The notes beneath the pieces were generated by a model. It saw only the letters and a list, made by a program, of their open reading frames with translations. It was not told where the DNA came from and searched no databases. 64,000 nt of DNA from an uncultured Myxococcales bacterium (GTDB taxonomy: Bacteria; Myxococcota_A; Polyangia; JAAYKL01), in NCBI GenBank assembly GCA_964530995.1, contig CAZHCG010000002.1, forward strand, positions 23,558 through 87,557. Reading direction: 5' to 3'. Of this stretch, positions 16,187 through 31,387 are shown one piece after another. The position numbers were made by a program, and so were the translations under genes. The first letter of the stretch is position 1. Each line of letters begins with the position of its first letter.

Positions 16187-18676
16187 TTGCTTTTCGGCTC
16201 CGGCATGTCCCCTTTGCCCGCAATTGCTGTTTCCTTCGCCGCCGGTGTCGGCCTGGGCCTGCTGGCTCCAACCGCGGTACAGGGAGCGATCGCCGCGGCG
16301 GCGATCGGCGCGGTCGGATTCTCGCTGGCCAGACGAGCCGGGACGGGCCTGTTGCCGGTGGCGGCCGCGGTCGCGCTGGCGCTGGGCTGGCTGCGCGCGC
16401 CGACGCCCGAGGATCGGCCTCGCGCGCCGGAGCCGCGGGGGCCGTGCGAGCGCGTGCTGCGAGGTACCCTGGCGCGTCCCGTGCTGACGGTCGAGGGCCG
16501 CCACCGGCTCGCGATCGACCTCGACGCCTGCACGGGTTGTCTCGGCGAGCCGCGCGTCTCGGGATGGCGCCGCTGCGGCGGACGGCTCTACGTCACTGCG
16601 CTGGAAGGCCCGAGGCCTCGACTGCGGCAGGGCGACCTGGTGCGCCTGCGGAGCACTGCGCGGCCGTGGCGACGACCGGCCAATCCGCCCGGCGGAAAAC
16701 AGGCCGAAGAGCATCTCTACCTTTCGGCCGTCGTCCCCCACGCCGGGGCGATCGCGCTGGAGGAGACGCGCTCCAGATTCGCGACCCGGCGCGTCGACGA
16801 GCTCCGAGCCGGGTTGGCAGAGTTCTGGAGCGACGCTCTCGAGGAGGCTCCCTCGCGCCTGGCGCGCGCTCTGGGCCTGGGCCAGTCCGCCGCGCTCTCC
16901 AGCGAGCAGCGCGAGGCGTTCCGGCGGACCGGCACCGCCCACCTGCTGGCGATCAGCGGCCTGCACCTGGGACTGGTCGTGCTGGCGGTCTTCTGGCTGC
17001 TGCGCCTCGCGCTGCTGCGCGTGCCTCCGCTGGCCAGGCGCCTGGATCCGGCCCGGATCGCCGCGGCGGCGACGATTCCGGTCGCGGTCGCCTTCACCCT
17101 GCTGACCGGTGCCCGCACACCGACGATCAGGGCCTGCGCGATGGCTGTTTTCCTGCTCTCCGGGCGAGCTCTCGCTCAGCGGGGACGCGCGCTGGAATCG
17201 CTCTCGCTGGCCGGCGCTGCGCTGCTGGCCGCTGATCCGACCTCGCTCGTCGAGCCGGGCTTCCAGCTCAGCTTCGCGGCGGTGATCGCCTTTCTGCTGG
17301 TGCTGCGTCCCGTCGCCCGGACCGGGGATGATCTCGCGACCCTGCCCGGCGGAAACGACGCCGAGCAGGGAAGGCTGCGATCCGGGCTGCGGGCCGCGGC
17401 CGGCTGGTTTGCTCGACTGCTGCGCTCCACCCTCGCCGCCTCGGCAGCAACCGTTCCGCTGGTGCTGCTGCACTTCGATCGCGCCTCTGTGGTCGGCGTG
17501 CCGGCCAACCTGCTGGCCGTCCCGGCGGTCAGCCTGCTGGTGCTGCCCGCGGTGCTGGTCACCGAGCTCGCCGCGATCTTCTCTCCGGCGGCCGCCTCGA
17601 TCGCGGCGCGGGCGGTGGAGCCGCTGCTGGCCGTTCTCGAGGGATCGCTGCGCTCCCTGGCCGAGCTGCCGTGCGTGATCTCCGACCCGTCGCCAACGGT
17701 CGTGGTCGGGGTGTTCGCGCTCGCCGTCGCGGTGCTGCTGCTGCTCGCCGGGCGGCCCAGGCTCGCGGCGATACCGGGCGCCGCCTTCGCGCTGCTGATC
17801 TCGGCGGCGGTCGCGCTCGACGCTCCGAAGATCCCCCGCGATCGCCTCACCGTCGACTTCCTCGACGTCGGCCAGGGCGACTCCTCGCTGGTCACCTTCC
17901 CGCGCGGCGAGCACTGGCTGATCGACTGCGGCGGAACCGCCGGCCGCGATCCCGGAGGCGACGTGGTGACTCCCGTGCTGGAACGGCTGGGCGTGGAGCG
18001 ACTGGAGACGGTGGTGCTGACCCACCCGGATCTGGATCACGTCGCCGGCCTGCCCGCGATCGCGCGCGGCTTCGAGCTGGGAAGCATCTGGGACAACGGC
18101 CAGGGCGCGGACGAGGGCGCCCACCCGGCCTACGCCGAGCTTCTGGACATCGCCGCGCAAAAGAGCGTCCGGGTTTTTCGCACGCGCGAGATCTGCGGCG
18201 AGCACAGAGTCGGCGCGGCGAGCCTCGAGGTGCTGCACCCCTGCCACGACCGGGTCGGCTACGATCCCACCCTCGAGTTGAACGAAAACTCGATCGTCGT
18301 CCGCATCGACTACGGTCGAACATCGTTCCTGCTGAGCGGAGACCTCGGCGCGGCCGGCGAGCGGATTCTGCTGGCGAACCACGCCCGCCTGCAAGCCGAC
18401 GTGCTCAAGCTGGGGCACCACGGCAGCCGCAGCTCCTCGACCCCGGAGTTTCTCGAGGCGGTCTCGCCGGCGGTGGCGGTCGCCAGCTGCGGCCCCTGGA
18501 ACCGCCACGGGATGCCGCACCGCAGGGTCCGCCTCGCGCTCGCCGAGCGGACCGTCTCTCTGTTCCGCACCGATCGCCAGGGAGCGATCCGCGCCACCAG
18601 CGACGGCGACCGGATCGCAATCAGCGCCACGAGAACGACGGGGGAGGGGCTCGAGCGGAAGTTGACAGGTAGATGA
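16187..18676 (+). CDS. comEC: DNA internalisation-related competence protein ComEC/Rec2
   Basis: 829 aa. Polytopic N-terminal domain, a competence domain and a C-terminal metallo-beta-lactamase domain (LTVDFLDVGQGDSSLV, THPDLDHVAGL, LKLGHHGSRSSS). Confidence 0.85.
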   Translation: MLFGSGMSPLPAIAVSFAAGVGLGLLAPTAVQGAIAAAAIGAVGFSLARRAGTGLLPVAAAVALALGWLRAPTPEDRPRAPEPRGPCERVLRGTLARPVLTVEGRHRLAIDLDACTGCLGEPRVSGWRRCGGRLYVTALEGPRPRLRQGDLVRLRSTARPWRRPANPPGGKQAEEHLYLSAVVPHAGAIALEETRSRFATRRVDELRAGLAEFWSDALEEAPSRLARALGLGQSAALSSEQREAFRRTGTAHLLAISGLHLGLVVLAVFWLLRLALLRVPPLARRLDPARIAAAATIPVAVAFTLLTGARTPTIRACAMAVFLLSGRALAQRGRALESLSLAGAALLAADPTSLVEPGFQLSFAAVIAFLLVLRPVARTGDDLATLPGGNDAEQGRLRSGLRAAAGWFARLLRSTLAASAATVPLVLLHFDRASVVGVPANLLAVPAVSLLVLPAVLVTELAAIFSPAAASIAARAVEPLLAVLEGSLRSLAELPCVISDPSPTVVVGVFALAVAVLLLLAGRPRLAAIPGAAFALLISAAVALDAPKIPRDRLTVDFLDVGQGDSSLVTFPRGEHWLIDCGGTAGRDPGGDVVTPVLERLGVERLETVVLTHPDLDHVAGLPAIARGFELGSIWDNGQGADEGAHPAYAELLDIAAQKSVRVFRTREICGEHRVGAASLEVLHPCHDRVGYDPTLELNENSIVVRIDYGRTSFLLSGDLGAAGERILLANHARLQADVLKLGHHGSRSSSTPEFLEAVSPAVAVASCGPWNRHGMPHRRVRLALAERTVSLFRTDRQGAIRATSDGDRIAISATRTTGEGLERKLTGR

Positions 18677-20301: not shown

Positions 20302-20517
20302 ATGAGAACCACGCTGAACATCGACGACGCCCTTCTCGCACAGGCGAGTAGCCTCACCGGGATCTCCGAGAAGACCGCGCTCGTGCGCGCGGGCCTCGAG
20401 GCGCTCGTCGAGCGCGAGAACGCCCGGCGCCTGACGCGGCTCGGCGGAAACGCGACGAGGCCTCCTGAAAATCGACCTTGCATCGCCGGCCCGGCAACGT
20501 GTAGCTTTTCGGCCTGA
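20302..20517 (+). CDS. Orphan VapB-like ribbon-helix-helix antitoxin / putative transcriptional regulator
   Basis: 71 aa. MRTTLNIDDALLAQASSLTG is a typical RHH N-terminus of VapB antitoxins. There is no PIN toxin downstream; the next gene is the 989-aa ORF 44 nt away. Confidence 0.6.
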   Translation: MRTTLNIDDALLAQASSLTGISEKTALVRAGLEALVERENARRLTRLGGNATRPPENRPCIAGPATCSFSA

Positions 20518-20561
20518 ATCTGGGTGGCCTCGGGCGTTACTCGATCGAGCTTGCGTGTTCA

Positions 20562-23531
20562 ATGGGAAGAAGAAAGAGAAAACGCAAGAAGCGTAGCGGT
20601 GGCGGCGGCGCGGCGGCGATCGGCGAGCTGGGAACCTCGGCGGAGGAAGCGGCGCGCGTCGAGGATCTCTTCCGCGGCGGCGCTTTCAGGGAGGCCCTCT
20701 CGCGAGCCAAGGCGCTGCACCGGCGCGACCGTACGGACGAGACCGAGGATCTCGTCGCCCGGGCCTACTCGGCGCGCGCCGACGCGATGATCGCCTCGGG
20801 GATGAGAGTCGAGGCGAAGGCCCTGCTCGACGTGGTCGAGAGCGATTTTCCCCGGCACCGCGAGATCGCGCTCCGCGGCCGGGCCTGCCTGGCGGCTTTG
20901 ACAGGGAAGGTCGACGCCCTGCTCGCTCCCCTGGCCCGCGACGATTTTCCAGAGGAGAAGCGGCGCGAGATCGAGGACGACATCCGGCGCTTCGTGGTCG
21001 ATCCGCGGCAGGTGGCCGGGTGCGGGGTTCTGAGCCGCGAGCACCCGCTGCGCCTCGCCGCCGGCGAGCTGTCCGCGGCGCTGGAGGCGGCGACGAGCGG
21101 GCCGGTCGGAGAGGAGGAGCTGGCCTGTCCGAGCGTGTCCCGCCGCAGCCCGCTGGCGCCCTGGAAGCTGCTCGCCCGCGCGATCGCCGCCTTCTACCGG
21201 CGCGACGACGCTGCGTGCGAGGAGCTGATCGGGGCGCTGCCGCCCGAATGCGCGCCCGCCGCGATCGCTCCGGCTTTCGGCGTCCTACTCGGCGGAGCGC
21301 GGCCGCGAATCGCCACGCCGCCGGTCGTGGCGCTGGTCGACGCCGTGCTCGGCGAGCGCGCTCGGCTGCGCGACGCCCTCGCCGCCGTGGACGAAACCAT
21401 CGCCGCGGGCAAGCGCCGGAAAGTGGGGCGGGTGGTCGGAGCGGCGATGAAGGAGTGCGAGCGGAGAGCGCCCGAGCTGGCACGGCGCCTCGCACAGCGG
21501 ATCGCGGCGCGGTGCTTGCTGGCGTACGTCCCGTTCGGTCATGTCCGCCGAGCGCTAGGCGGTAGAATAACGGTCGATTCCGATTTCTGGCGGCTGTTCG
21601 TGCGCACCAACGAGATCCTGGCCGAGCGCCACGGCGAGGCCGTATCGCTGTGCAACGCCTGCGCAGGCCTGGAGGAGCTCCGCAGGCACTCCCAGGCCGA
21701 GGGCCGGTTCTCGAAGGGCGGTCCAGAGGAAGCGACCCTCTATCTGCGCATGATCGACCTGCTCGATTGGCCACCCGACGCCGTCGTCGAGGAGGCGCGC
21801 GCCGTGTTCGAGGCGGAAGGGGGTGGGGATGGCCTGGCCCATCTCTACGAGGGCCAACCACCTGAAATCCGGGCGCGCTCTTCGCTGGTGGACGGATGTG
21901 ATTCGTACTTCCTCTACCCGGAGCTAATCTGGGAACGCGCGTGCCGCGCCGATCCGGATCCCGAGATTTTTTGCCGCAGGTTGGAGTGGACAGCGGCCAG
22001 GAACGGGGACTGGAGAGCGCTGGACGAGATTGCGCTCGCCTGGCGCGACGCCGCACCCGACGACGTGCGACCGCTCCTCCATCTGGCGCGCTCCGCCGAA
22101 AAGCGGGGCTCGCTGAACAAGGCGCTCGGACATGTCGAGCGCGCGGAGACGATCGAACCCAACCGAGGCGACGTGCAAAGGGCGCGGAGACGGCTGCTCA
22201 CGGCTACGGCGCGGCGACACCTGACGCAACGCAAGCTGCACCTGGTCGAGCGCGACCTCGACCGCCTGGGGCGACTGCCCGGCGCGGAAGAAGCCGGGAG
22301 ACGCGCGATGACAACGGCGCTGCGCTTTTGCAAGCACATCCTGTCGGGCGATATCGAGAGCGCGCGGAGCGGACTGGTCGCTCTGTACGAGCTGCTGGGC
22401 GATGAGCTGGCAGCCGGGGCGCTGTGCGAGGCGACGGCCGAGCCGGACGGCGCGCTCCTCTCCGCGGCCGGAAATCTCCTGCCGGACGCGCCCGCTCTCC
22501 TAGCTCCCGGCTCGATTGCGCTGGCGGCCGCGCGGGTCTGTGGGATCGGGGAGGATCACGAGACTCCGCTGGGCCCGCCCCGGCAGTGGAGGAGGAGAAT
22601 TCTCGACGATCTGGCCGCCGGATCGGGCGCGCTGGGAGCCGCCGAGCTGGCGGCTCTCGCCCGAGCCGCAACGCGCGCGCGCCAGTACGATTTGGCCTAC
22701 GCGGCTTCGGGTGCCGGATTGGCCCTCGGACCGCCGCACACGGCGCGTTTCTTGCTGCTGCGGGCCAATAGCCTGCCGCCATCGAGGTGGCTGCGGATCT
22801 TGATGTGCCTGCGGGCCGCGCTCGGTCTGGCCCGCAGACAGGGCGACAACCAGCTCGTCGCCGAGATCTTGACCGCCCACCGCGAGAGCGGGCGCCGAAC
22901 GAGGAGCCCTGCGTCGCCGCCGGGAGGCGGCGTGCTGGAAGAGCTGGATTTCTCCCGGACGGACGAGGTTGTCCTGCGGGAGCGGGAGGCGGCCTCAAGG
23001 CCCTCGTCGACAGGCTACGATCCGACGGACTCCTGGTGGACCGAGGAGCTGGCGCCGTGCGACTGCCCTGCCTGCCGGCGCGCGCGGGGGGAGCCGCCAT
23101 TGCCGCAGCAAGAGGAGTTCGAGGACGTTTTCGACCAGGGGGACGAGGAAGATTCGGTCATCGATTCGTTGGATTCGCTGGGCGAGATCCTGATGTCCCA
23201 GCTAAACATGCCCCCGGAGATGCTGCACGAGTTCGTCGAGGAGATGATCGACCGCGAGGGCAACCCCATGCCCGACCTGCCACCTCGGCTGGCTGCCTGC
23301 ATGCTCGAGATCGCGATTCGCTTCGGCCCCCGGATGATGGAGAATCCCGACCTGGAAGAGCTGAAAAAACGAGCTCCCGATCTCCACAGGCGCCTGGGCG
23401 AGGCGATACGCCAGACCGAGGCTTCCGGAGAGCTTCCGACCATTTGGTCCGAATCGACAGGACGCAAGAAGAGAAAAGACAAGAAGAAAAAGAACGGAAA
23501 AAAGAAAAAGAGAAAGAGCCGCCGTCGATAA
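20562..23531 (+). CDS. Large (989 aa) predicted all-helical hypothetical protein with polybasic N- and C-terminal tails
   Basis: A long uninterrupted ORF with no competing gene on either strand, 27 nt upstream of the J-like gene. N-terminus MGRRKRKRKKRSGGGG; C-terminus RKKRKDKKKKNGKKKKRKSRRR preceded by an acidic stretch. A CDCPACRRARGE Cys knuckle is present. No known catalytic motif recognised. Confidence 0.6.
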   Translation: MGRRKRKRKKRSGGGGAAAIGELGTSAEEAARVEDLFRGGAFREALSRAKALHRRDRTDETEDLVARAYSARADAMIASGMRVEAKALLDVVESDFPRHREIALRGRACLAALTGKVDALLAPLARDDFPEEKRREIEDDIRRFVVDPRQVAGCGVLSREHPLRLAAGELSAALEAATSGPVGEEELACPSVSRRSPLAPWKLLARAIAAFYRRDDAACEELIGALPPECAPAAIAPAFGVLLGGARPRIATPPVVALVDAVLGERARLRDALAAVDETIAAGKRRKVGRVVGAAMKECERRAPELARRLAQRIAARCLLAYVPFGHVRRALGGRITVDSDFWRLFVRTNEILAERHGEAVSLCNACAGLEELRRHSQAEGRFSKGGPEEATLYLRMIDLLDWPPDAVVEEARAVFEAEGGGDGLAHLYEGQPPEIRARSSLVDGCDSYFLYPELIWERACRADPDPEIFCRRLEWTAARNGDWRALDEIALAWRDAAPDDVRPLLHLARSAEKRGSLNKALGHVERAETIEPNRGDVQRARRRLLTATARRHLTQRKLHLVERDLDRLGRLPGAEEAGRRAMTTALRFCKHILSGDIESARSGLVALYELLGDELAAGALCEATAEPDGALLSAAGNLLPDAPALLAPGSIALAAARVCGIGEDHETPLGPPRQWRRRILDDLAAGSGALGAAELAALARAATRARQYDLAYAASGAGLALGPPHTARFLLLRANSLPPSRWLRILMCLRAALGLARRQGDNQLVAEILTAHRESGRRTRSPASPPGGGVLEELDFSRTDEVVLREREAASRPSSTGYDPTDSWWTEELAPCDCPACRRARGEPPLPQQEEFEDVFDQGDEEDSVIDSLDSLGEILMSQLNMPPEMLHEFVEEMIDREGNPMPDLPPRLAACMLEIAIRFGPRMMENPDLEELKKRAPDLHRRLGEAIRQTEASGELPTIWSESTGRKKRKDKKKKNGKKKKRKSRRR

Positions 23532-23558
23532 CGCGGAGGATCACCGAGGTCGAAACAG

Positions 23559-23867
23559 ATGGACGAGCATGTCGAAAACGACGATCCCTGGGCCGTTCTG
23601 GGAGTAGGGCACGACGCCACATCTGACGAGATACGCGGCGCCTACCTGGATTGTGTACGGCGCAACCCGCCCGAAGGGAACCCCGAAGCGTTCGAGCGGA
23701 TTCGCGACGCCTACGAGGCCATCTCCGATCCTCGCCGACGGATCGAGCGTCTGCTGCTCGCGGACGATCCGGAAAGACCGCTGGCGGCCCTGCTCGACGA
23801 TCTGCCGGCCGAGCGCCGCTTCGTCGGTCTCGGCCCCTGGCTGGCTGTCATCGCGAAAGGAAAATAG
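23559..23867 (+). CDS. J-like domain protein lacking the HPD motif
   Basis: 102 aa. DPWAVLGV...SDEIRGAYLDCVRRNPPEGNPEAFERIRDAYEAISDPRRR aligns to J-domain helices I-IV, but HPD is replaced by NPP. There is no G/F region, zinc finger or C-terminal substrate-binding domain. Confidence 0.6.
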   Translation: MDEHVENDDPWAVLGVGHDATSDEIRGAYLDCVRRNPPEGNPEAFERIRDAYEAISDPRRRIERLLLADDPERPLAALLDDLPAERRFVGLGPWLAVIAKGK

Positions 23868-23871
23868 GGAA

Positions 23872-24657
23872 ATGGAGGGCGAACAGCGGGACAGAGTCGA
23901 CCAGACGGCCTCTCGCGTGGCGGAGTGGGTCCGTGCTGTCCTCGCCGACGAGGCACCGCCGGCCGGTGTCGCCCCCGAGATCCTATCGGCTGCCGAGAGA
24001 AACGGGGGCAAGGGCGCGGAAAAGGGCGGCGGTTACGATCTGCACTCGCTGTGGTCGGCGCTGACGACCCTGGCCCGGGAGATCGGCCTCCAGGGGCGAT
24101 CGTTCGACCGACTCCGCGGCGACCTCTCCTCCGTGGCAGGACTTTCCGAGCGCGTGGACGCCGCGCTCGCCGCCTGCCGTGAGAACCCTACCGGAGCACA
24201 CGCCGGCCGCGAGGGCGAAGCGCACGAGTCGGTCCGGCGGGAGATGGTCGAGATACTGATCGATCTGCGCGAGCGGCTCGATCGGAGCCAGAACACGGCG
24301 CGGCGCGGGCTGGCTGCGGCGCGGGAGTCGGTCGCGTCCTCGTGGGTGCTGCGCGCGTTCGGCACGCGCGCCGCCGGACAAACGATCGAGGCGGCCGAGG
24401 CGATTGCCGACGGCGATCTGCTGGGCCTGGAGCGGATCGAGGAGCTGTTGCGCGAGTGGGGCGTGACCCGGTCGAAGTGCGAGGGGCGGCCTTTCGATCC
24501 CGCACGCATGCGAGCGGTGGAGATCGTGAGGACGGACGCCGAACCGGAAGGCCGGGTGCTCGGAGTCGTCCGCAACGGGTACGAGTGGCGGGGTCGGGTG
24601 ATCCGGCACGCCGAAGTCGAGGTCGCCAGGCGGGAGACAGAGGGAGAAGAACGATGA
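23872..24657 (+). CDS. Divergent GrpE-like nucleotide-exchange factor
   Basis: 261 aa. The C-terminal beta-domain matches GrpE (FDPARMRAVEIVRTD...GVVRNGYEWRGRVIRHAEVEVAR), after a long helical region. Its stop overlaps the Hsp70 start (ATGA). Confidence 0.65.
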   Translation: MEGEQRDRVDQTASRVAEWVRAVLADEAPPAGVAPEILSAAERNGGKGAEKGGGYDLHSLWSALTTLAREIGLQGRSFDRLRGDLSSVAGLSERVDAALAACRENPTGAHAGREGEAHESVRREMVEILIDLRERLDRSQNTARRGLAAARESVASSWVLRAFGTRAAGQTIEAAEAIADGDLLGLERIEELLREWGVTRSKCEGRPFDPARMRAVEIVRTDAEPEGRVLGVVRNGYEWRGRVIRHAEVEVARRETEGEER

Positions 24658-26447
24658 GCGGTGAGACGACGGCAGGTATCGATCTGGGTACGAGCAACTC
24701 GGAGATCGCGATGTTCGACGGAGACCGGGTGCGGGTGCTCGCTGCGGACGGCGAGGAGATGCTGCCTTCCTGCGTGGGGCTGTCCGCCTCCGGTGAGCTG
24801 CTCGTCGGCGCGCCGGCGCGCAACCAGCACTTGCTCTACCCGGAGCGCACCGCGCGTGGAATAAAGCGGATGATGGGCACGGAAGACGAGATCGAGCTGG
24901 GCGATCGCCGCTTCAGCCCCCAGGAACTCTCCGCCCTCTTGCTGCGCGAGCTGGTCGAGCGGGCCGCGCGCGAGTTGGGGAGCGCCCCTCGGCGGGCCGT
25001 GATCACGGTGCCGGCCTACTTCTCCGACGCCCAGCGGCAGGCCACTCGCGAGGCCGGGGCGCTGGCCGGCCTGGAGGTCGAGCGCATACTCAACGAGCCC
25101 ACCGCAGCCTGTCTGGCCTACGGCCGCGGGGGCGCCGGTGAGACCGTGATGGCTTACGATCTCGGCGGCGGAACGCTGGACGTCTCGCTGGTGCGCCTGG
25201 AGGGCAACGTGACCGAGGTGCTCGCTAGCCACGGCGACAACCGGCTCGGCGGAGACGATTTCACCCAGATCCTGTTCAATCGCCTCGCAGACGTCTTTGC
25301 CGAAGAGCACGGCATGGATCTCCGCCGCGGCGATCCGGCCGCCCGTTCCCGCCTGTGGTGGGCGGCGGAGGCGGCCAAGCGCAGGCTCAGCGAGGAGCCC
25401 TACGCCGAGATCAGGGAAGACGGGCTCGGCCAGCGCGACGGCAAGCCGCTGCACCTCGAGCTGGAGATCGGCAAAAACGAGTACGACGAGATGATCCGCC
25501 CGCTGGTGGAAAAGACGATGGAAAGCGTGACCCGGGCGATGGACGACTCCGGGGTCGGGGCTCGCGAGCTGGACGCCGTGCTGCTCGTCGGCGGCTCGAC
25601 ACGGACCCCGTTGGTTCGTGAACTGCTGCAAAATCGCCTCGAGCTCGAACCACACGAAGAAATCCACCCCGATCTGTGTGTGGCGCTGGGCGCGGGTGTG
25701 CTGGCCTCGAGAATCGACGGGCGGGAGGTCTCGAATGTGCTCGTGGACGTCTCGCCGTACTCGTTCGGCATCTCGTTCCTCGGCGAGCGGGGGGGCGCCC
25801 CCTACCCCTACTGCTACAGGCCGATCATCCGCGCCAACTCGGCGCTTCCGGTCACACGCACCGAACGCTATACGACCGCAACCCCCTATCAGCGCGAGGC
25901 CCGCATCGACGTCTTCCAGGGAGAAGACGCGGACGCGCTGCGCAACATCCCGGTGGGATCGTTCACCGTCGAGGATCTGAACCCCAGGGAGGACCCCAAC
26001 GAAATCCTGTGCAAGATGAGGTTGGATCTCGACGGAATGCTGAACGTCTCCGCGATCGAGAAGGAGACCGGACACGCCAAGCACGTCGCGATAGACGGCG
26101 CGCTGGCCCGCAAGAGCGAAGCGGAGATCGAAGCGGCCCGGGAGCGGCTGGAGACCCTTTTTGGCGACCGCGTCGGAGAGGGAGAAACCGCTGGAGCGGC
26201 GCCCGAGGACGCCTCCGGGCGAGACGGCTCGTCGGCGAGCCCGGACTGGCGCGAGGCAGTGGCACGTTCCGATGCGCTGGTCGGACGCTCGCAACGTCTG
26301 CTCGAGAAGATGCACGCCGAAGACAAGGAGGAGGCGATCGACCTCCACGAGGCGATTCGCCACGCGGTCGAGTCCGGCGACGAGGCCGCCCTGAGCGCTG
26401 CGGTGCGGGAGCTGGAGGATCTCGTGTTCTTCGTGGAGGGCAGATGA
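24654..26447 (+). CDS. Hsp70-family chaperone (DnaK paralog, 598 aa)
   Basis: GIDLGTSNS, DLGGGTLDVS and VLLVGGSTRTPLV NBD motifs, plus a substrate-binding domain (VLVDVSPYSFGISFLGE) and helical lid. Start verified at the ATG overlapping the GrpE-like stop. Shorter than canonical DnaK and not in a dnaK-dnaJ context. Confidence 0.85.
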   Translation: MSGETTAGIDLGTSNSEIAMFDGDRVRVLAADGEEMLPSCVGLSASGELLVGAPARNQHLLYPERTARGIKRMMGTEDEIELGDRRFSPQELSALLLRELVERAARELGSAPRRAVITVPAYFSDAQRQATREAGALAGLEVERILNEPTAACLAYGRGGAGETVMAYDLGGGTLDVSLVRLEGNVTEVLASHGDNRLGGDDFTQILFNRLADVFAEEHGMDLRRGDPAARSRLWWAAEAAKRRLSEEPYAEIREDGLGQRDGKPLHLELEIGKNEYDEMIRPLVEKTMESVTRAMDDSGVGARELDAVLLVGGSTRTPLVRELLQNRLELEPHEEIHPDLCVALGAGVLASRIDGREVSNVLVDVSPYSFGISFLGERGGAPYPYCYRPIIRANSALPVTRTERYTTATPYQREARIDVFQGEDADALRNIPVGSFTVEDLNPREDPNEILCKMRLDLDGMLNVSAIEKETGHAKHVAIDGALARKSEAEIEAARERLETLFGDRVGEGETAGAAPEDASGRDGSSASPDWREAVARSDALVGRSQRLLEKMHAEDKEEAIDLHEAIRHAVESGDEAALSAAVRELEDLVFFVEGR

Positions 26448-26728
26448 GCGCCGACCCGCCGAGATCGCGGTGCCCGGTCTGCCGGGCGCGCTTTCGCGGC
26501 ACGACCGGGTGTTCCCGCTGCGGCGCGGATCTCGAGCCGCTGATGACGATCGAGATTCTGGCCTGGCGAGCCAGGCAGGCCGCGCGCGCGGAGCTGCTCG
26601 CCGGCTCTCCGTCGAAAGCGATGCGGTGGGCCGTGCGCGCCCAGAGACTGCGCGCGACAGGCGCCGGGCGGGATCTCGAGATCCTGGCTGCGGCGCTGCT
26701 GGAGGCGGAAGAGCTGCTCGGAGAATGA
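26444..26728 (+). CDS. Small zinc-ribbon protein translationally coupled to Hsp70
   Basis: 94 aa with CPVC-x13-CSRC followed by an Ala/Arg-rich helix. Its ATG overlaps the Hsp70 stop (ATGA). Confidence 0.5.
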   Translation: MSADPPRSRCPVCRARFRGTTGCSRCGADLEPLMTIEILAWRARQAARAELLAGSPSKAMRWAVRAQRLRATGAGRDLEILAAALLEAEELLGE

Positions 26729-26774
26729 CCGGCGCTCCGGGGAGACGGCAAGAGATTTTCGTCGGGCCTCGTAA

Positions 26775-26882
26775 TCAACGCTCGTAGTGGCCGCCGATCG
26801 CCAGGACGTGGACGGCTTCGTCGTCGAAGGCGCAGACGATCTTTCGGCCAACTCTGATTGAATAGTACGGCTTTCCCGACTG
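26775..26882 (-). pseudogene. RelE/ParE-family toxin remnant (C-terminal 35 codons)
   Basis: Minus frame QSGKPYYSIRVGRKIVCAFDDEAVHVLAIGGHYER* matches the RelE/ParE C-terminus (YRxRVGDYRxxYxxDDExxxVxVLxxGHR). An in-frame TAA lies immediately upstream, so the N-terminal two-thirds is missing. Confidence 0.45.
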
Positions 26883-26890
26883 TTAGTCGA

Positions 26891-26927
26891 GCACCGCGGC
26901 GAGCGTTCGCGACTATCGCGCTTGACC
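26891..26927 (+). repeat. 37-bp imperfect direct repeat, copy 1 (gcaccgcggcgagcgttcgcgactatcgcgcttgacc)
   Basis: 34/37 identical to copy 2 at 27919..27955, about 1.03 kb downstream. It lies in the 5' region of the RHH remnant. Confidence 0.6.
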
Positions 26928-27056
26928 TTTCCGAGGGATCTCCTCGAGCAGGCCGACCGCGTTGCCAAGAGGGAATCGCGCAGCCGCAGCGAGCTGGTCC
27001 GGGAGGCGCTGCGCGCATACCTCGACCGGCGTCCCGAGTCGGAGACCGTCCCGTGA
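26922..27056 (+). CDS. Small RHH (CopG/VapB-like) antitoxin, possibly with a TTG start, or an N-terminally eroded gene
   Basis: Frame ...LTFPRDLLEQADRVAKRESRSRSELVREALRAYLDRRPESETVP* is a typical RHH antitoxin. There is no in-frame ATG (the open frame extends back to 26862). Its stop overlaps the GTG of the vapC remnant (GTGA). Confidence 0.4.
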   Translation: MTFPRDLLEQADRVAKRESRSRSELVREALRAYLDRRPESETVP

Positions 27057-27154
27057 TCCTGGCCGATACCTAGATCTGGGTCGATTTCCTGCGGCGAGGC
27101 GAGCCGGCGCTCGCCCGAGCGGACGAGATGGGTCACTTGCGGAACACCAGATAG
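27053..27154 (+). pseudogene. vapC (PIN toxin) remnant with a premature TAG at codon 7, truncated after ~33 codons
   Basis: VILADT*IWVDFLRRGEPALARADEMGHLRNTR resembles the VapC N-terminus (MILADTSIWIDFLRG...). It has an in-frame TAG at 27071-73, and the frame ends in the AT-rich promoter of the next TA module. Confidence 0.45.
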
Positions 27155-27918: not shown

Positions 27919-27955
27919 GCACCCCGGCGAGCGTTCGCGACTATTGCGCTCGACC
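27919..27955 (+). repeat. 37-bp imperfect direct repeat, copy 2, overlapping the lspA stop codon
   Basis: gcaccccggcgagcgttcgcgactattgcgctcgacc. Positions 27941-27955 are the last codons and stop of lspA on the minus strand. Confidence 0.6.
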
Positions 27956-28576
27956 CGCCTTGTCCGCGGCGGGCTTCTTTGCGCGGTCGTCCTTCTTGCC
28001 CGGCAGCATCTGGAGGATCATCAACCCGATCCCGATCACGATCGCGGCGTCGGCCACGTTGAAGGTCGGCCAGTGGCGCTCGACTCCGCCCACGGTCACG
28101 TACCAGTCGACGAAATCGACCACGTAGCGGTAGACCAGCCGGTCGATCAGGTTGCCCACCGCGCCGCCCAGCACGAACGGCAGCGCGTAGAGCATCATCC
28201 GCTGCTCGGCCGGGGTCTTGCGGTACAGGTAGGGGATGAAGGCCGCCGCCAGCAGCGAGATCAGAATGAAAAAGGGGTAGCGGAACGACTCGGGCACGCG
28301 GCTCATCAGGCCGAAGGCGCTGGCGCAGTTCTCCACGTACTTGAAGTTGAACAGCCCGTCGATCACCTCGATCGACTCGCGGTGCCTCCGCACGAAGCGC
28401 TCGCGCGCGACCTCCTCGGCGCCGCTGGCGCAGACCGGGTACTCCTCGCCGCGGGCGTGGAAGGTCTCGTCGACCAGCGCGTGCAGGGCCCACTGCTTGC
28501 TGGCCTGGTCCGCCGCCACGGTCAGCGCGAACAGCACGACAAGACCGATCAGCGGCTTTTTCGCTCGTTTGGCCAC
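27941..28576 (-). CDS. lspA: Lipoprotein signal peptidase II
   Basis: 211 aa, four TM segments, conserved FNVADAAI and GAVGNLIDR motifs. Immediately downstream of ileS, the conserved ileS-lspA operon. Confidence 0.85.
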   Translation of the reverse strand: MAKRAKKPLIGLVVLFALTVAADQASKQWALHALVDETFHARGEEYPVCASGAEEVARERFVRRHRESIEVIDGLFNFKYVENCASAFGLMSRVPESFRYPFFILISLLAAAFIPYLYRKTPAEQRMMLYALPFVLGGAVGNLIDRLVYRYVVDFVDWYVTVGGVERHWPTFNVADAAIVIGIGLMILQMLPGKKDDRAKKPAADKAGRAQ

Positions 28577-28582
28577 GGCTGC

Positions 28583-31387
28583 TCAGACCTCCGCCTCGCC
28601 GCGCGCGACGAGATCCTCGACGACCCCGGCGCAGCGCGCGCACAGCTCGGGACGACGCGCGTCCTGTCCGATTCCGTGCCCGTAGCGCCAGCAGCGCGGG
28701 CACTTGGCGGCCTCGCTCCTGGAGGTGGTCACCGCGAGCGGACCTCGGCCCTCTTCCACCTCCACGCCCGAGACGATGAACAGGTCGGCCAGCGCCCGCC
28801 CGCCCACCTCGCGCAGCAGCTCCAGGGTCGCGCCCGAGGCGCGAATCCCGATCTCGGCCTCCAGCGAGTTGCCGATCTGCTTGGCAGCGCGCCGCTCCTC
28901 GAGCAGCTTGGTCACCTGCCGCCGCACCTCTCGCAGCGCTTCCATCCGATCGAGCAGCGCCTCGTCGCGCCACTGGCCGGGTACCTCGGGGAAGCCGGCC
29001 AGAAAGACCGAGTCCGGCTCTCCGGAGCCGGCCGGCAGGTTCTGCCAGACGTCCTCGGCGGTGAAGCTCAGCACCGGCGCCAGCGCGCGGGCGGTGTCGC
29101 GGGCCAGCGCGTACAGCACGGTCTGCGCCGAGCGCCGCGAAAGGCCCTCGGGCGCGTCGCAGTAGACGCGATCCTTGATGATGTCCAGGTAGAAGGAGGA
29201 CAGCTCCACCGTGGCCAGCTCGATCGTGCCGTGGAAGACGTGGTGGAAATCGTACTCGTCGTAGGCGCGATCGATCCTGTCCAGGTAGCGCCCGAAGCGC
29301 GCCAGCATCCAGCGATCCAGCTCGGTCATCTCTGCGAGCGGCACGGCGTGCTCGGCCGGGTCGAAGCCGTGCAGGTTGCCCAGCATGAAGCGGAAGGTGT
29401 TGCGGATCTTGCGGTACGACTCCACCAGGCTCTTGAGGATCCCCTGCGAGAACGCGATGTCCGAGCGGTAGTCCTCGTAGCCGACCCACAGCCTCAGGAT
29501 CTCGGCGCCCTGCTGGTCGACGATCTTCTGCGGCGGCACGAAGTTGCGCTGGCTCTTGGAGAGGATCTCGCCTTTCTCGTTGGTGATGAAACCGTGGGTC
29601 AGCACCGCGCGGTAGGGCGCGTGTCCGCGCGTCGCGGTCGCGGTCAGCAGCGCGGTGTGGAACCAGCCGCGGTGCTGGTCCGAGCCCTCGAGGTAGAGGT
29701 CGACCGGCACCGACATCCCCTCGCGCCGCTGGGCGACCGCGGCCCAGCTGACGCCCGACTCGAACCAGACGTCGACGATGTTGGCCTCCTTGCCGAAGGA
29801 ACGCCCGCCGCAGGCCGCGCATTCCACTCCGTCGGGCAGCAGCTCGGCGGCCTCGCGCTTCCACCACTCGTCGCTGCCGTGCTCGCCGAAGATCTTCGCC
29901 ACGTGGCGGATCACCCCGGCGTCGACCAGCGGCTCGCCGCACTTCTCGCAGAAGAAGAACGGCAAAGGCACGCCCCAGACCCGCTGGCGCGAGATGCACC
30001 AGTCCGGGCGGTTCTCCACCATTCCGTGGATGCGGTCGCGACCCCAGGGCGGAATCCAGCGCGTGCGATCGATCTCGGCCAGCGCCTCTTCGCGCAGGCC
30101 GGTGCGATCCATCGAGACGAACCACTGCGGAGTGGCGCGGAAGATCACCGGCTGCTTGCAGCGCCAGCAGGCCGGGTACTGGTGGTCGATCGTCTGGTCG
30201 GGCGGGTTGAGCAGCGCGCCGCTTTCTGCGAGGAGCTCGACGATCTCCGGGTTGGCGTCGAACACGCCCTTGCCGGCCCAGCGCTCGACCTCGTCGGTGA
30301 ACCTGCCGTTCTCGTCGACCGGCGCGTAGGCGTCTATTCCGTGCCCGGCGCACAGCACGTAGTCCTCCTGCCCGTGACCGGGCGCGGTGTGCACGCAGCC
30401 GGTCCCGGCCTCGAGCGTCACGTAGTCCGCGACCAGGATCGGCACCTCGCGCTCGATGAACGGGTGCCGCACGCGCAGCCCGGCCAGCCGCTGGCCGGGG
30501 ACGGCCCGCCCGAGCGGCTCGGCCTCGACCCGGCAGTCCCCAAAAGCTCTCTCGGCCATCTCCTCGGCCACGACCACCCGCTGCTCGCCGACCGCGTAGG
30601 CCCGGTAGCGGTACGAAGGGTGGACCGCGACGACCAGCGAGGCGGGCAGCGTCCAGGGGGTGGTCGTCCAGATCATGACCGAGGGCGGCGCGCCGTCCTT
30701 CTCCAGGCCGAGCGCCTCGGCCAGCTCGTCGGCGTCGAGCGCCGGATACGTTACGTAGATCGACGGCGAGGTGTGCTCGCCGTACTCGACCTCGGCCTCG
30801 GCCAGCGCGGTCCGGCAGCCGGCGCACCAGTAGACCGGTTTGTGGCCGCGGTAGACCAGGCCGCGCTCCACGATCCGCGCCAGCTCCTCGACGATCACCT
30901 GCTCGTAGTCGCGATCGATCGTGCGGTAGGCCTCGTCCCACAGCGAGAAGACGCCCAGGCGCCGCAGCTCGGCGAGCTGGTGGTTCGACCACTTCAGCGC
31001 GAACTGCTCGCAGCGCTTGCGGATCGAGAGCCGGTCCGCCTCGTCCGAGGGCTTGCCCAGCTCGCGCTCCACGTTGAGCTCGATCGGCAGTCCGTGGCAG
31101 TCCCAGCCCGGAATGTAGCGCACGTGCCGGCCCTTGAGCGAACGGTACTTGGTCACGATGTCCTTGAGCACCTTGTTCAGCACGTGCCCGTGGTGAATCC
31201 CGCCGTTGGCGTAGGGCGGGCCGTCGTGGAAGACGAAGCGCTCGCCGCCGGAGGTCTTGTCCAGCAGCCGCTCGTAGACCCGCTTCTCCTTCCACAGCTC
31301 GAGGAACTCCGGCTCCCGGCTGGAGAGCGAGGCCTTCATCGGAAAGCCGGTGCGCGGCAGGCAGATCGTGTCTTTGTAGTCGACCAT
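28583..31387 (-). CDS. ileS: Isoleucyl-tRNA synthetase
   Basis: 934 aa. HIGH-type motif (PYANGGIHHGH), KMSKS (ILSKSQRN variant region), editing domain, and a C-terminal zinc-binding CPRCW...CARC. Confidence 0.95.
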   Translation of the reverse strand: MVDYKDTICLPRTGFPMKASLSSREPEFLELWKEKRVYERLLDKTSGGERFVFHDGPPYANGGIHHGHVLNKVLKDIVTKYRSLKGRHVRYIPGWDCHGLPIELNVERELGKPSDEADRLSIRKRCEQFALKWSNHQLAELRRLGVFSLWDEAYRTIDRDYEQVIVEELARIVERGLVYRGHKPVYWCAGCRTALAEAEVEYGEHTSPSIYVTYPALDADELAEALGLEKDGAPPSVMIWTTTPWTLPASLVVAVHPSYRYRAYAVGEQRVVVAEEMAERAFGDCRVEAEPLGRAVPGQRLAGLRVRHPFIEREVPILVADYVTLEAGTGCVHTAPGHGQEDYVLCAGHGIDAYAPVDENGRFTDEVERWAGKGVFDANPEIVELLAESGALLNPPDQTIDHQYPACWRCKQPVIFRATPQWFVSMDRTGLREEALAEIDRTRWIPPWGRDRIHGMVENRPDWCISRQRVWGVPLPFFFCEKCGEPLVDAGVIRHVAKIFGEHGSDEWWKREAAELLPDGVECAACGGRSFGKEANIVDVWFESGVSWAAVAQRREGMSVPVDLYLEGSDQHRGWFHTALLTATATRGHAPYRAVLTHGFITNEKGEILSKSQRNFVPPQKIVDQQGAEILRLWVGYEDYRSDIAFSQGILKSLVESYRKIRNTFRFMLGNLHGFDPAEHAVPLAEMTELDRWMLARFGRYLDRIDRAYDEYDFHHVFHGTIELATVELSSFYLDIIKDRVYCDAPEGLSRRSAQTVLYALARDTARALAPVLSFTAEDVWQNLPAGSGEPDSVFLAGFPEVPGQWRDEALLDRMEALREVRRQVTKLLEERRAAKQIGNSLEAEIGIRASGATLELLREVGGRALADLFIVSGVEVEEGRGPLAVTTSRSEAAKCPRCWRYGHGIGQDARRPELCARCAGVVEDLVARGEAEV

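What the first reader, a model, noticed from the sequence alone, without database searches (positions are those of the whole stretch)
20302..26728. Non-canonical Hsp70 cassette (orphan RHH, 989-aa polybasic protein, HPD-less J-like, GrpE-like, Hsp70, Zn-ribbon) inside a toxin-antitoxin island
Six co-oriented genes with gaps of 44, 27 and 4 nt and two ATGA stop/start overlaps form one apparent operon. All parts of an Hsp70 machine are present but every one is atypical. The J protein lacks the catalytic HPD tripeptide and all client-binding domains. The GrpE is long and divergent. The Hsp70 is short and paralogous rather than the housekeeping dnaK, which is not adjacent to dnaJ here. The cassette also includes a zinc-ribbon protein and a 989-aa helical protein whose termini are polybasic tails. 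It is bracketed by MazEF, MNT-HepT, an orphan VapB and a decayed RelE/VapBC graveyard, which is the classic genomic signature of defence or accessory islands. Hsp70-based modules are not among the described defence systems. The closest known analogue is the Myxococcus sglK/grpS specialised Hsp70 pair used for fibril production and social motility, but that pair has no J-like, Zn-ribbon or giant polybasic partner described, as far as I know. So this is either a novel chaperone-based system (a dedicated folding or disassembly machine for the large protein, or a stress/defence effector module) or an undescribed elaboration of a specialised myxobacterial Hsp70 locus.
Basis: partly seen in the sequence, partly recalled or inferred. 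Interest (0 to 1): 0.85.

Follow-up and report, generated by a model that had tools for sequence, protein, structure and literature searches.

The report
Conserved five-gene specialised Hsp70 cassette
This is a real, undescribed five-gene chaperone module (a giant TPR-like protein, a J-like protein without the usual HPD motif, its own GrpE, its own Hsp70 and a small zinc-ribbon protein) that stays together in at least six bacterial phyla, but nothing shows it is an anti-phage defence system.

Summary
Only five of the six genes form the unit. The order BIG (989 aa), J-like, GrpE-like, Hsp70, Zn-ribbon is kept in every sufficiently long locus among 80 species (one circularly permuted): Acidobacteriota, Planctomycetota, Desulfobacterota, Polyangia, Hydrogenedentota. 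Starting from the Zn-ribbon, 14 of 15 metagenome loci with room hold the full cassette. VapB is a local neighbour, not a member. The Hsp70 keeps every checked ATPase and allostery residue but falls below the DnaK and HscA thresholds and sits on a long private branch. The J-like protein has [F/Y/H]PP[D/E] instead of HPD in all 104 orthologues, and DnaK Q378 is L/M in the partner Hsp70. BIG is an all-alpha TPR-like solenoid with no Pfam family, a near-invariant SRRSPLAPWK loop and usually a polybasic C-tail. It represents at least 661 clusters (50% identity). Flanks elsewhere are heterogeneous (138 Pfam families in 149 neighbours). There are no PADLOC hits and no plasmid or viral copies, and inheritance within phyla looks mostly vertical. 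My best reading is a self-contained, private Hsp70 cycle built around a TPR platform or client. The defence reading is weak. No description was found in the searched literature.

The parts
20471..20561 (+). Leader region that travels with the cassette (promoter not identified)
   Evidence: The 88.7% nucleotide match to the related Polyangia contig L002 begins at 20471, about 90 nt before the first gene. The flanks further upstream differ. The consensus scan found no sigma-70-type site here.
20562..23531 (+). BIG: 989-aa all-alpha TPR-like solenoid with polybasic N- and C-terminal tails. Signature EHPLR...TSGPV...SRRSPLAPWK at residues about 160-202
   Evidence: No Pfam family and no PDB sequence relative. 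AF2 mean pLDDT is 83.8 and the model is all helical. Foldseek hits are TPR scaffolds (IFT-A, Ski3, APC3, Ctr9, OGT) with E 3e-6 to 1e-3 and TM below 0.25. The family holds 661 clusters at E<=1e-30; the 150 best listed are mostly 800-1000 aa (range 681-1024) and show no added domains. Conservation peaks at residues 151-240. The C-tail is basic in most orthologues.
23559..23867 (+). J-like protein, 102 aa: a J-domain with NPPE in place of HPD, plus a conserved 40-aa C-terminal peptide
   Evidence: Pfam DnaJ scores 35.1 bits, above the 27.8 gathering score. The HPD position reads [F/Y/H]PP[D/E] in 104 orthologues and never HPD. R22, Y25 and R27 equivalents of helix II are kept, read from the alignment.
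23872..24657 (+). GrpE-like nucleotide exchange factor, 261 aa, with a conserved N-terminal extension
   Evidence: Pfam GrpE scores 57.1 bits but matches only profile positions 88-164. Every NCBIfam GrpE equivalog is below its cut-off (best 45.9 against 194). The long helix and the beta-domain motif FDP..M.AV...VPEGTV.EVYR.GYEW.G...R.A.VKV are conserved.
24654..26447 (+). Specialised Hsp70, 597 aa, predicted catalytically competent, ending in the conserved ELLFFVEG
   Evidence: Pfam HSP70 scores 389.7 bits. DnaK models score 433/417 bits against cut-offs of 648/822, and HscA scores 340 against 708. D8, K70, E171, D194, T199, D201, P143, R151, R167, N170, T215, E217, L391, D393, P419 and D481 are kept in all or nearly all of 68 orthologues. 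Q378 is L/M and E206 is T/S/A. It has an acidic lid linker and a conserved C-terminal bundle.
26444..26728 (+). Zn-ribbon protein, 94 aa: a CPVC-x9-CSRC knuckle pair followed by three helices (1.5 TPR-like)
26729..26841 (+). Downstream tail shared with the relative. Its distal part (about 26778-26841) is the remnant of a minus-strand yoeB
   Evidence: The match to L002 runs to 26841 and resumes at 26852-26903. L002 carries an intact YoeB gene (70.9 bits) in the roughly 466 nt that the window lacks.

Best explanation
The locus encodes a self-contained, specialised Hsp70 machine with private co-chaperones, separate from housekeeping DnaK/DnaJ/GrpE. The Hsp70 runs a normal ATP-driven open/close cycle, and the cassette's own GrpE-like protein resets it. 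The J-like protein docks at the usual J-site, since the helix II basic face and the Asp/Glu that pairs with Hsp70 R167 are kept. Its loop is PPD/PPE rather than HPD and faces a matching Q378 to L/M change in the Hsp70. The pair is therefore probably insulated from the cell's HPD-type J-proteins and DnaK. The J-like protein then acts either as a rewired activator or as a tether/regulator.

BIG, the TPR-like solenoid, is the obligate fifth partner. It is either the platform that assembles the machine, binding the conserved C-terminal peptide of the J-like protein, the N-terminal extension of GrpE-like or the ELLFFVEG end of the Hsp70 in its groove. Or it is the dedicated client, presenting its near-invariant SRRSPLAPWK loop to the Hsp70 substrate pocket in the way IscU presents LPPVK to HscA. 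Its basic tails probably anchor the assembly to a polyanionic surface (acidic membrane or nucleic acid). The Zn-ribbon/1.5-TPR protein is an accessory adaptor or escort.

Shown here: gene content, synteny, residue conservation and predicted folds. Inferred: all protein-protein contacts, the role of the tails and the cellular process served.
For: - Synteny. The five genes are adjacent in every locus long enough, among 80 species-level genomes from at least five named phyla. One locus has a circular permutation. Starting independently from the Zn-ribbon gene, 14 of 15 metagenome loci with room hold the full cassette. Overlapping starts and stops recur in an acidobacterial example and in the window.
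- Hsp70. The catalytic, linker and allosteric residues checked are kept in all or nearly all of 68 orthologues. It is below the DnaK and HscA cut-offs and forms one tight clade on a long branch from E. coli DnaK.
- J-like. The HPD position is [F/Y/H]PP[D/E] in 104 of 104 orthologues, so this is a fixed family trait and not decay. According to PMC8215388, H33 bonds the L391 carbonyl, P34 contacts P419, and D35 bonds R167 and Q378. Here L391, P419 and R167 are invariant while Q378 is L/M.
- BIG. It is a confident all-helical TPR-like model, and the 150 best family members show a largely uniform 800-1000 aa architecture with no effector fusions. Its strongest conservation lies in a loop flanked by basic residues.
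- Charges. The Hsp70 lid linker has a median net charge of -10, and the last 25 aa of BIG have a median of +5.
- Zn-ribbon. It has a 4-Cys knuckle plus a TPR-like hairpin.
- Neighbours. No conserved extra neighbour exists, so the five genes suffice as a unit.
Against: - No physical interaction was tested. Complex prediction was not possible with the tools.
[quoted passage not shown] The J-like protein may therefore be inhibitory or inert, and a housekeeping DnaJ may serve the Hsp70.
- The platform and client roles of BIG cannot be told apart.
- The SRRSPLAPWK segment is modelled with high confidence (pLDDT about 90), so it may be structural rather than a binding loop.
- The tail-anchoring idea rests on composition alone, and about 40% of orthologues have weaker basic tails that end in ...SLF, LPF or LLF.
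- The cellular process served is unknown.
Confidence: 0.55

Rival explanations
1. It is a chaperone-gated defence or conflict system. BIG acts as a repeat-protein sensor of an invader, the Hsp70 cycle sets the threshold or triggers assembly, and the basic tails deliver a toxic activity on membrane or nucleic acid.
For: - In this window and in its close relative the cassette lies among toxin-antitoxin genes, in a rearranged context.
- The distribution across phyla is patchy, and the window's copy nests among planctomycete copies, which suggests horizontal transfer.
- Flanks vary.
- Hsp70/GrpE/DnaJ/TPR combinations have been predicted in conflict systems (PMC7159879; PMC11090510).
- PIN, YoeB, ParE/RelB and integrase fragments occur near some copies.
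Against: - No nuclease, protease, TIR, pore-former, NTPase switch or other effector domain is present in any of the five proteins.
- The cassette proteins have no meaningful PADLOC match.
- Of 149 nearest neighbours, 138 different Pfam families are hit, mostly metabolic and transport genes. PADLOC hits in the flanks are four generic kinases.
- No copies were found in 72,556 plasmids, 50,697 phages or the IMG/VR contigs.
- The Hsp70 tree largely follows taxonomy within Acidobacteriota and Desulfobacterota.
- The proteins are well conserved (Hsp70 51-67%, Zn-ribbon 43-71%, BIG 30-40% identity across phyla), with no hypervariable sensor-like segment apart from disordered linkers.
Confidence: 0.15
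2. It is a second, stress-specialised general chaperone set, a DnaK2-type paralogue like Myxococcus SglK/GrpS. It serves many clients, and BIG and the Zn-ribbon protein are auxiliary co-chaperones in the style of Hop or Ruc rather than the focus of the machine.
For: - The Hsp70 keeps a canonical hydrophobic substrate pocket and the full allosteric machinery.
- M. xanthus MxDnaK2 is co-transcribed with its own GrpE paralogue and serves a distinct, membrane-rich client set (PMC11019930).
- A small zinc-ribbon protein, Ruc, works with DnaKJE (PMC7448276).
- The Zn-ribbon helices resemble TPR co-chaperone domains.
- Acidobacteria often carry extra dnaK copies.
Against: - The only J-protein in the set lacks HPD and has no client-binding domain. 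That is unsuited to delivering diverse clients.
- The strict five-gene linkage with a 900-aa partner is not seen for DnaK2/GrpS, where none of the 15 J-proteins is adjacent.
- The Hsp70 fails the DnaK thresholds.
- Ruc has CxxC-N17-CxxC and a disordered tail, whereas here the spacing is N9 with an ordered helical domain.
Confidence: 0.2
3. It is simply this lineage's housekeeping dnaK/grpE locus.
For: It contains Hsp70, GrpE and J-domain homologues in one operon.
Against: - Identity to E. coli DnaK is 36%.
- The Hsp70 is below all DnaK, HscA and GrpE equivalog cut-offs.
- There is no HPD, G/F region or zinc-finger domain in the J-protein.
- Only 108 hits were found in a collection of 185,579 species, although with a single peptide pattern.
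- It lies on a long separate branch.
Confidence: 0.02

Closest known systems
HscA/HscB/IscU (Fe-S cluster Hsp70 system)
   Same: It is a specialised bacterial Hsp70 with a private small J-type co-chaperone, dedicated to one partner protein that presents a short invariant loop (LPPVK in IscU; compare SRRSPLAPWK in BIG).
   Different: HscB has HPD. HscA needs no GrpE (from established knowledge of the family). The partner IscU is a small Fe-S scaffold, not a 900-aa TPR solenoid. No isc genes lie nearby. The HscA model scores 340 bits against a cut-off of 708.
Myxococcus xanthus SglK (MxDnaK2, MXAN_6671) / GrpS (MXAN_6672)
   Same: A non-essential Hsp70 paralogue is co-transcribed with its own GrpE paralogue placed directly upstream (PMC11019930).
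   Different: That locus is a two-gene operon with no adjacent J-protein. No BIG or Zn-ribbon partner is described for it. MxDnaK2 is treated as a true DnaK, whereas this Hsp70 fails the DnaK cut-offs. The cassette is mainly acidobacterial, and the window copy groups with planctomycete copies. Orthology was not tested directly because no SglK sequence was at hand.
Mitochondrial PAM import motor (mtHsp70, Pam18, Pam16, Mge1, Zim17/Hep1)
   Same: It combines an Hsp70, a GrpE-type exchange factor, a J-like protein lacking HPD (Pam16) and a small zinc-ribbon Hsp70 partner (Zim17/Tim15), assembled on a fixed platform (PMC9695410).
   Different: Pam16 works as a partner of an HPD-bearing Pam18, and no HPD J-protein is in this cassette. 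The Zn-ribbon has no zf-DNL match, and its knuckles are 9 residues apart. The platform there is the TIM23 translocase, not a TPR solenoid. This is an analogy, not homology.
GAP1-N2 GTPase-centric conflict systems with HSP70+GrpE and DnaJ- or TPR-fused proteins (Kaur et al. 2020)
   Same: They co-occur Hsp70, GrpE, a J-domain and TPR repeats in one predicted operon outside the housekeeping locus (PMC7159879).
   Different: Those systems are defined by a GAP1-N2 GTPase and FNIII-repeat proteins and are mainly actinobacterial and firmicute. No GTPase or FNIII protein is in or next to this cassette.
E. coli HscC with DjlB/DjlC
   Same: It is a third-type bacterial Hsp70 with dedicated J-proteins encoded nearby (PMC8215388).
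   Different: DjlB and DjlC carry HPD. There is no dedicated GrpE, TPR giant or Zn-ribbon protein. No HscC-specific model appeared among the NCBIfam matches.
Ruc (Rv0991c), zinc-ribbon redox chaperone linked to DnaKJE loci
   Same: It is a small 4-Cys zinc-ribbon protein genomically and functionally tied to Hsp70 systems, including in the PVC superphylum (PMC7448276).
   Different: Ruc has CxxC-N17-CxxC and a disordered hydrophilic tail. Here the pattern is CxxC-N9-CxxC followed by a confidently folded three-helix TPR-like domain. The only Zn_ribbon_8 hit is insignificant (E 0.067).

Membership tests
Hsp70 superfamily (PF00012) | Pfam HSP70 above the gathering score; actin-like ATPase catalytic residues (D8, K70, E171, D194, T199, D201 in DnaK numbering) | tested here: met
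   389.7 bits against a cut-off of 20.6. All six residues are kept in the window protein and in 67-68 of 68 orthologues.
Housekeeping DnaK (NCBIfam NF001413 / TIGR02350) | Score above the equivalog cut-off | tested here: not met
   433.2 bits against 648, and 417.2 against 822.55. Identity to E. coli DnaK is 36%.
Housekeeping DnaK-DnaJ-GrpE set | J-protein with an HPD tripeptide and client-binding regions (G/F, Zn-finger, beta-sandwich domains) | tested here: not met
   The protein is 102 aa with only a J-domain. The motif is NPPE in the window and [F/Y/H]PP[D/E] in 104 orthologues.
J-domain (PF00226) | Pfam DnaJ above the gathering score | tested here: met
   35.1 bits against 27.8, covering profile positions 1-59 of 63.
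GrpE (PF01025 / NCBIfam equivalogs) | Pfam GrpE above the gathering score; equivalog cut-off reached | tested here: inconclusive
   The Pfam domain is met (57.1 bits against 25.8), but only the C-terminal half of the profile is matched. All 25 NCBIfam GrpE equivalogs are below cut-off (best 45.9 against 194).
HscA/HscB Fe-S chaperone pair | HscA equivalog score; HscB-type J-protein with HPD; isc gene neighbourhood | tested here: not met
   HscA scores 340 bits against 708.55. There is no HscB match to the J-like protein. No isc genes appear in the flanks.
SglK/GrpS (MxDnaK2 operon) | grpE paralogue directly upstream of the Hsp70 paralogue in one operon | tested here: met
   GrpE-like 23872-24657 overlaps the Hsp70 start at 24654 (ATGA).
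SglK/GrpS (MxDnaK2 operon) | Orthology of the Hsp70 to MXAN_6671 | not tested
Indirectly, the only Myxococcota locus among the 80 listed is a Polyangia MAG (L002; no Myxococcus), and the cassette Hsp70 fails the DnaK cut-offs.
Known or candidate anti-phage systems (PADLOC-DB v2) | Any cassette protein matching a defence-system model | tested here: not met
   The only hit is one insignificant match (PDC-M61B, E 0.014, 12 bits) for the Hsp70. The other five proteins have none.
Defence-island residents (guilt by association) | Recurrent neighbourhood of known defence genes across lineages | tested here: not met
   The 149 nearest neighbours hit 138 Pfam families, with a maximum of 4 members each (Pkinase, PIN). 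PADLOC hits are kinase-type only. No formal enrichment statistic was computed.
GAP1-N2 GTPase-centric HSP70/GrpE conflict systems | GAP1-N2 TRAFAC GTPase and an FNIII-repeat protein in the operon | tested here: not met
   There is no GTPase or FNIII domain in the five proteins, and no conserved neighbour exists.
CoCoNuT CnuD Hsp70-like | Association with an McrB-like NxD GTPase and a McrC DUF2357 protein; degenerate ATPase motifs | tested here: not met
   No McrB or McrC is in the cassette or in conserved flanks. The ATPase residues are intact, in contrast with PMC11090510.
Hep1/Zim17 (zf-DNL) Hsp70 escort proteins | zf-DNL zinc ribbon | tested here: not met
   No zf-DNL hit at E<=0.1. Only weak generic zinc-ribbon hits appear.
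TPR proteins (Pfam TPR clan) | Sequence match to TPR repeat models | tested here: not met
   There is only one sub-threshold TPR_2 hit in the window protein (15.3 bits against 27) and none in 29 relatives. The predicted fold is nevertheless a TPR-like alpha-solenoid.

The most novel reading that the evidence does not exclude
The cassette is an orthogonal Hsp70 cycle in which a J-domain without the 'essential' histidine ([F/Y/H]PP[D/E]) still triggers ATP hydrolysis in its own Hsp70, through a rewired contact (Pro in place of H33 packing against L/M378). This would give bacteria a private chaperone circuit, insulated from DnaK/DnaJ, that operates on or from a giant TPR platform tethered by polybasic tails to membrane or nucleic acid.
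Probability: 0.3. Interest if true: 0.8.

Novelty: new variant of a known kind. Interest (0 to 1): 0.62.

Why it matters
Bacterial Hsp70 biology is built on three well-studied types (DnaK, HscA, HscC) and on the rule that a J-domain needs HPD. This cassette is a fourth, widely spread module: at least 661 protein clusters of its signature partner, at least six phyla, and common in peat and soil Acidobacteriota. Its only J-protein has lost the histidine in every member, yet the whole five-gene unit is under strong purifying selection.

If the J-like protein activates its Hsp70, this would be a natural example of an HPD-independent, insulated J/Hsp70 pair. If it does not, it would be a bacterial counterpart of the regulatory J-like proteins so far known mainly from mitochondria.

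The work also assigns a context to a large family of roughly 900-aa 'hypothetical' TPR-like proteins. Finally, it supplies a tractable host: Edaphobacter aggregans DSM 19364 carries the cassette (L053).

Tried and rejected
- Housekeeping dnaK locus: rejected on NCBIfam cut-offs, identity and distribution.
- Six-gene operon including VapB: rejected. VapB is absent from the 80 other loci, and the match to the close relative starts inside the 3' end of the VapB ORF.
- Extra conserved partner genes: all-against-all clustering of ORFs within 8 kb of the cassette found no family in more than 10 loci (generic histidine kinase and response regulator).
- Defence annotation: PADLOC on the six proteins and on 149 neighbours gave nothing specific.
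- Mobile-element carriage: BIG has no match in plasmids or phages, and the Zn-ribbon has no relative in viral contigs.
- Sequence or fold identity for BIG: Pfam on 30 members, a PDB profile search and Foldseek PDB gave only generic TPR-solenoid similarity. The afdb50 library was unavailable.
- Zn-ribbon as Hep1/Zim17 or Ruc: no family match, and different cysteine spacing and C-terminal domain.
- A CxCPxC motif near the BIG C-terminus, considered as a SecA-like zinc site: it is missing from several orthologues, so it is not defining.
- Promoter and terminator: the consensus scan found no sigma-70-type site, and no terminator after the last gene. A by-eye TTGCAT/TAGCTT pair matches only 3 of 6 in each hexamer, so it is not claimed.
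- Complex prediction: not possible.
- Literature: five full-text searches found no paper on this gene set.


Full report
**What is in the sequence.**
- VapB, 20302-20517
- a 989-aa protein, here called BIG, 20562-23531
- a 102-aa J-like protein, 23559-23867
- a 261-aa GrpE-like protein, 23872-24657
- a 597-aa Hsp70, 24654-26447
- a 94-aa zinc-ribbon protein (ZnR), 26444-26728

The gaps of 44, 27 and 4 nt and the two ATGA overlaps are read directly, and each start has a purine-rich SD-like motif upstream. Pfam confirms VapB_antitoxin (60 bits), DnaJ (35.1 bits, gathering score 27.8), GrpE (57.1 bits, C-terminal half of the profile only) and HSP70 (389.7 bits). BIG and ZnR have no family. NCBIfam puts the Hsp70 well below the DnaK cut-offs (433 against 648; 417 against 822) and the HscA cut-off (340 against 708). 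It puts the GrpE-like protein below every GrpE equivalog. PADLOC finds nothing. The window holds only this one Hsp70 (36% identical to E. coli DnaK). It also holds an unrelated HPD-bearing J-domain in a response-regulator protein at 41610-43646.

**The unit has five genes and is strictly conserved.**
BIG has full-length relatives (30-40% identity, about 850-1000 aa), all unnamed, in many phyla. One scan of one genome per species, using a single BIG peptide pattern, confirmed 108 loci. The 80 best come from Acidobacteriota (Bryobacterales, Solibacteraceae, Acidobacteriaceae including the cultured Edaphobacter aggregans DSM 19364, and Thermoanaerobaculia), Planctomycetota, Desulfobacterota, a Polyangia MAG, Hydrogenedentota and Sumerlaeota.

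A tblastn search with the six window proteins shows BIG, J-like, GrpE-like, Hsp70 and ZnR in that order in every locus long enough to hold them. The single exception, L075, has the circular permutation Hsp70-ZnR-BIG-J-GrpE. VapB was found only in L001, a contig carrying identical cassette proteins.

I then repeated the test from the other end. The ZnR motif recovers at least 482 metagenome stretches, mostly from soil and peat. Of 15 loci with enough upstream DNA, 14 have the whole cassette, and Hsp70 lies directly upstream in 47 of 52. A profile search of 1.84 billion cluster representatives finds 661 BIG clusters at E<=1e-30 (2,071 at E<=1e-3). The 150 best listed are mostly 800-1000 aa (range 681-1024) and show no added domains. 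Clustering of all flanking ORFs finds no sixth conserved gene.

**The Hsp70.**
Aligned with E. coli DnaK, the following residues are kept in all or nearly all of 68 orthologues:
- catalytic residues: D8, K70, E171, D194, T199, D201
- interdomain allostery residues: P143, R151, D393, D481
- linker core: L391
- J-contact residues: R167, N170, T215, E217, P419

Q378 is always L or M and E206 is T/S/A. The lid contains a variable acidic linker (median net charge -10). The protein ends in a strongly conserved helical bundle with the terminal motif ELLFFVEG. In a neighbour-joining tree the cassette Hsp70s form one tight clade on a long branch from DnaK. I conclude that it is an active, allosterically competent Hsp70 and not the housekeeping enzyme.

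**The J-like protein.**
In 104 orthologues the HPD position reads [F/Y/H]PP[D/E] and never HPD. The residue before the two prolines varies among F, Y and H, so it behaves like the aromatic residue that normally precedes HPD and not like the catalytic histidine. Helix II keeps the R22, Y25 and R27 equivalents. A roughly 40-residue C-terminal peptide (LLxxDPxxPLxSLLD...RxFxGPxPWLxVL) is conserved.

According to the review PMC8215388, H33 bonds the L391 carbonyl, P34 contacts P419, and D35 bonds R167 and Q378. His and Asp substitutions abolish stimulation in every system tested. In this family the Asp/Glu, R167, L391 and P419 are kept, while the His and Q378 have both changed, to Pro and to Leu/Met. 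I read this as a co-adapted, private interface. That reading is an inference, not a measurement.

**The other parts.**
- GrpE-like has the usual long helix and beta-domain, plus a conserved N-terminal extension.
- BIG is modelled as an all-helical solenoid (pLDDT 83.8). It resembles long TPR scaffolds at low TM (IFT-A, Ski3, APC3, Ctr9, OGT). It has no Pfam family or PDB sequence relative. Its best-conserved stretch is residues 151-240, with EHPLR, TSGPV and the near-invariant SRRSPLAPWK. Most orthologues end in a run of Lys/Arg. One acidobacterial sub-branch ends in a basic stretch followed by ...SLF, LPF or LLF. N-terminal basic runs occur in the Desulfobacterota and planctomycete copies and in the window.

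**Context.**
In the window the cassette lies between comEC and lspA-ileS, among MazEF, MNT-HepT, VapB and an intact FitA-PIN pair. Compared with the nearest relative (L002, a Polyangia MAG, 88.7% nucleotide identity), similarity covers only 20471-26841 plus 26852-26903. It begins inside the 3' end of the VapB ORF. L002 carries an intact yoeB where the window has a roughly 466-nt deletion. DNA that lies 20 kb away in the window (positions 1-352) sits inverted about 2 kb from the cassette in L002. The local neighbourhood is therefore plastic and rich in toxin-antitoxin genes in this lineage.

Across the family the picture differs. The 149 nearest neighbours in about 65 loci hit 138 Pfam families, none in more than four proteins (Ser/Thr kinases, PIN, TPR, transporters, metabolic enzymes). 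The PADLOC hits there are those same kinases. An acidobacterial example is flanked by MacB/FtsX transporters, a TetR regulator and an epimerase, with a ParE/RelB pair and an integrase fragment 4 kb away. No copy was found on plasmids, phages or viral contigs. The Hsp70 tree keeps Acidobacteriota and most Desulfobacterota together, while the window's copy nests among planctomycete copies. Inheritance therefore looks mostly vertical, with some transfer between phyla.

**Most likely mechanism.**
I commit to a self-contained, specialised Hsp70 cycle. The Hsp70 hydrolyses ATP and clamps a peptide. GrpE-like resets it. The J-like protein occupies the J-site through a rewired PPD/L378 contact, which insulates the pair from DnaJ and DnaK. 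BIG is the obligate platform or client. ZnR is an accessory adaptor.

Two sub-models remain open:
- Platform model. BIG's TPR groove binds the extended conserved peptides of its partners, and its basic tails fix the machine to an anionic surface. This resembles the TPR receptors that recruit Hsp70 in eukaryotes.
- Client model. The SRRSPLAPWK loop is the dedicated Hsp70 substrate, as LPPVK of IscU is for HscA.

Gene content, synteny, residue conservation and folds are shown here. All contacts, the tail function and the physiological role are inferred. My confidence in the general statement is about 0.55.

**Rivals.**
- A defence or conflict system (0.15). Support comes from the toxin-antitoxin setting of this copy, the patchy distribution, and published predictions of Hsp70/GrpE/DnaJ/TPR sets in GTPase-centred systems and of Hsp70-like CnuD in CoCoNuT systems. 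Against it: no effector or switch NTPase, unremarkable flanks elsewhere, no mobile-element copies, and conservative evolution.
- A general stress paralogue of the SglK/GrpS type (0.2). This fits the intact substrate pocket and the grpE-hsp70 pairing. It does not fit a client-domain-less, HPD-less J-protein or the strict linkage to BIG.
- The housekeeping locus. This is refuted.

**Novelty and score.**
Five full-text searches found no description of this gene set. The library is incomplete, so this is absence of evidence only. I rate the finding a new variant of a known kind, namely specialised bacterial Hsp70 systems. Two unusual features are fixed across the family: a sole J-protein without HPD, and an obligate roughly 900-aa TPR-like partner. 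Interest is 0.62. It is still substantial because the module is widespread, strictly conserved and experimentally approachable.

Noticed in passing
window 41610-43646 (+): A 678-aa protein combines an N-terminal response-regulator receiver domain, a central region, a canonical J-domain with intact HPD (YFKLLGL...RRYHPDT) and C-terminal TPR-like helices. It is the only other J-domain in the window.
   Followed up: partly
window 20302-20517 (+): The VapB ORF has a complete 47-residue VapB domain. Its last ~15 codons lie in DNA that travels with the cassette (the match to L002 starts at 20471), and no vapC follows. It looks like an antitoxin gene truncated or fused when the cassette region was joined to it.
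   Followed up: partly
window 26778-27150: This stretch holds decayed toxin-antitoxin remnants. The first is the C-terminal stub of a minus-strand yoeB, which is intact in L002 at 6614-6883. Next is an RHH-type antitoxin reading frame (...RSRSELVREALRAYLDRRPESETVP*). It is overlapped (GTGA) by the N-terminus of a PIN/VapC gene that has an in-frame TAG at codon 7 and is truncated after about 35 codons. Read by eye; not confirmed by a profile search.
   Followed up: partly
window 1-352 vs L002 8257-8971: DNA at the very start of the window (20 kb upstream of the cassette) lies inverted about 2 kb downstream of the cassette in the related Polyangia contig. This indicates rearrangement around the cassette between close relatives.
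   Followed up: no
window 52046-52184; L002 11444-11988: A (GACACC)n-type tandem array (period 6, about 20 copies; higher-order periods of 24, 30 and 42) encodes Asp-Thr/Asp-Ser/Asp-Ala repeats. A longer version is present in L002.
   Followed up: partly
L075 7663-14023: A planctomycete copy has the circularly permuted gene order Hsp70-ZnR-BIG-J-like-GrpE-like. The five genes are still contiguous.
   Followed up: no
L123 9380-10228: This is the only locus found where the Zn-ribbon gene is preceded by just a GrpE-like fragment, with no Hsp70, J-like or BIG. It is probably a degraded cassette.
   Followed up: no
L015 6531-7520; L004 3875-4395: The gaps between the GrpE-like and Hsp70 matches are unusually long (about 1 kb and 0.5 kb) in two loci. 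This may be an insertion, a frameshift or an N-terminal extension.
   Followed up: no
window 16187-18676 (+), 27941-28576 (-), 28583-31387 (-): Housekeeping genes bracket the toxin-antitoxin and cassette region: comEC (Competence plus metallo-beta-lactamase domains) upstream, and lspA (Peptidase_A8) and ileS downstream on the opposite strand.
   Followed up: yes
BIG residues ~823-835 (window 23028-23066): A CxCPxCRxARGE motif is conserved in most BIG orthologues but absent from several. Four other cysteines (C219, C299, C461, C749) are nearly invariant. Possible metal or redox chemistry was not examined.
   Followed up: partly
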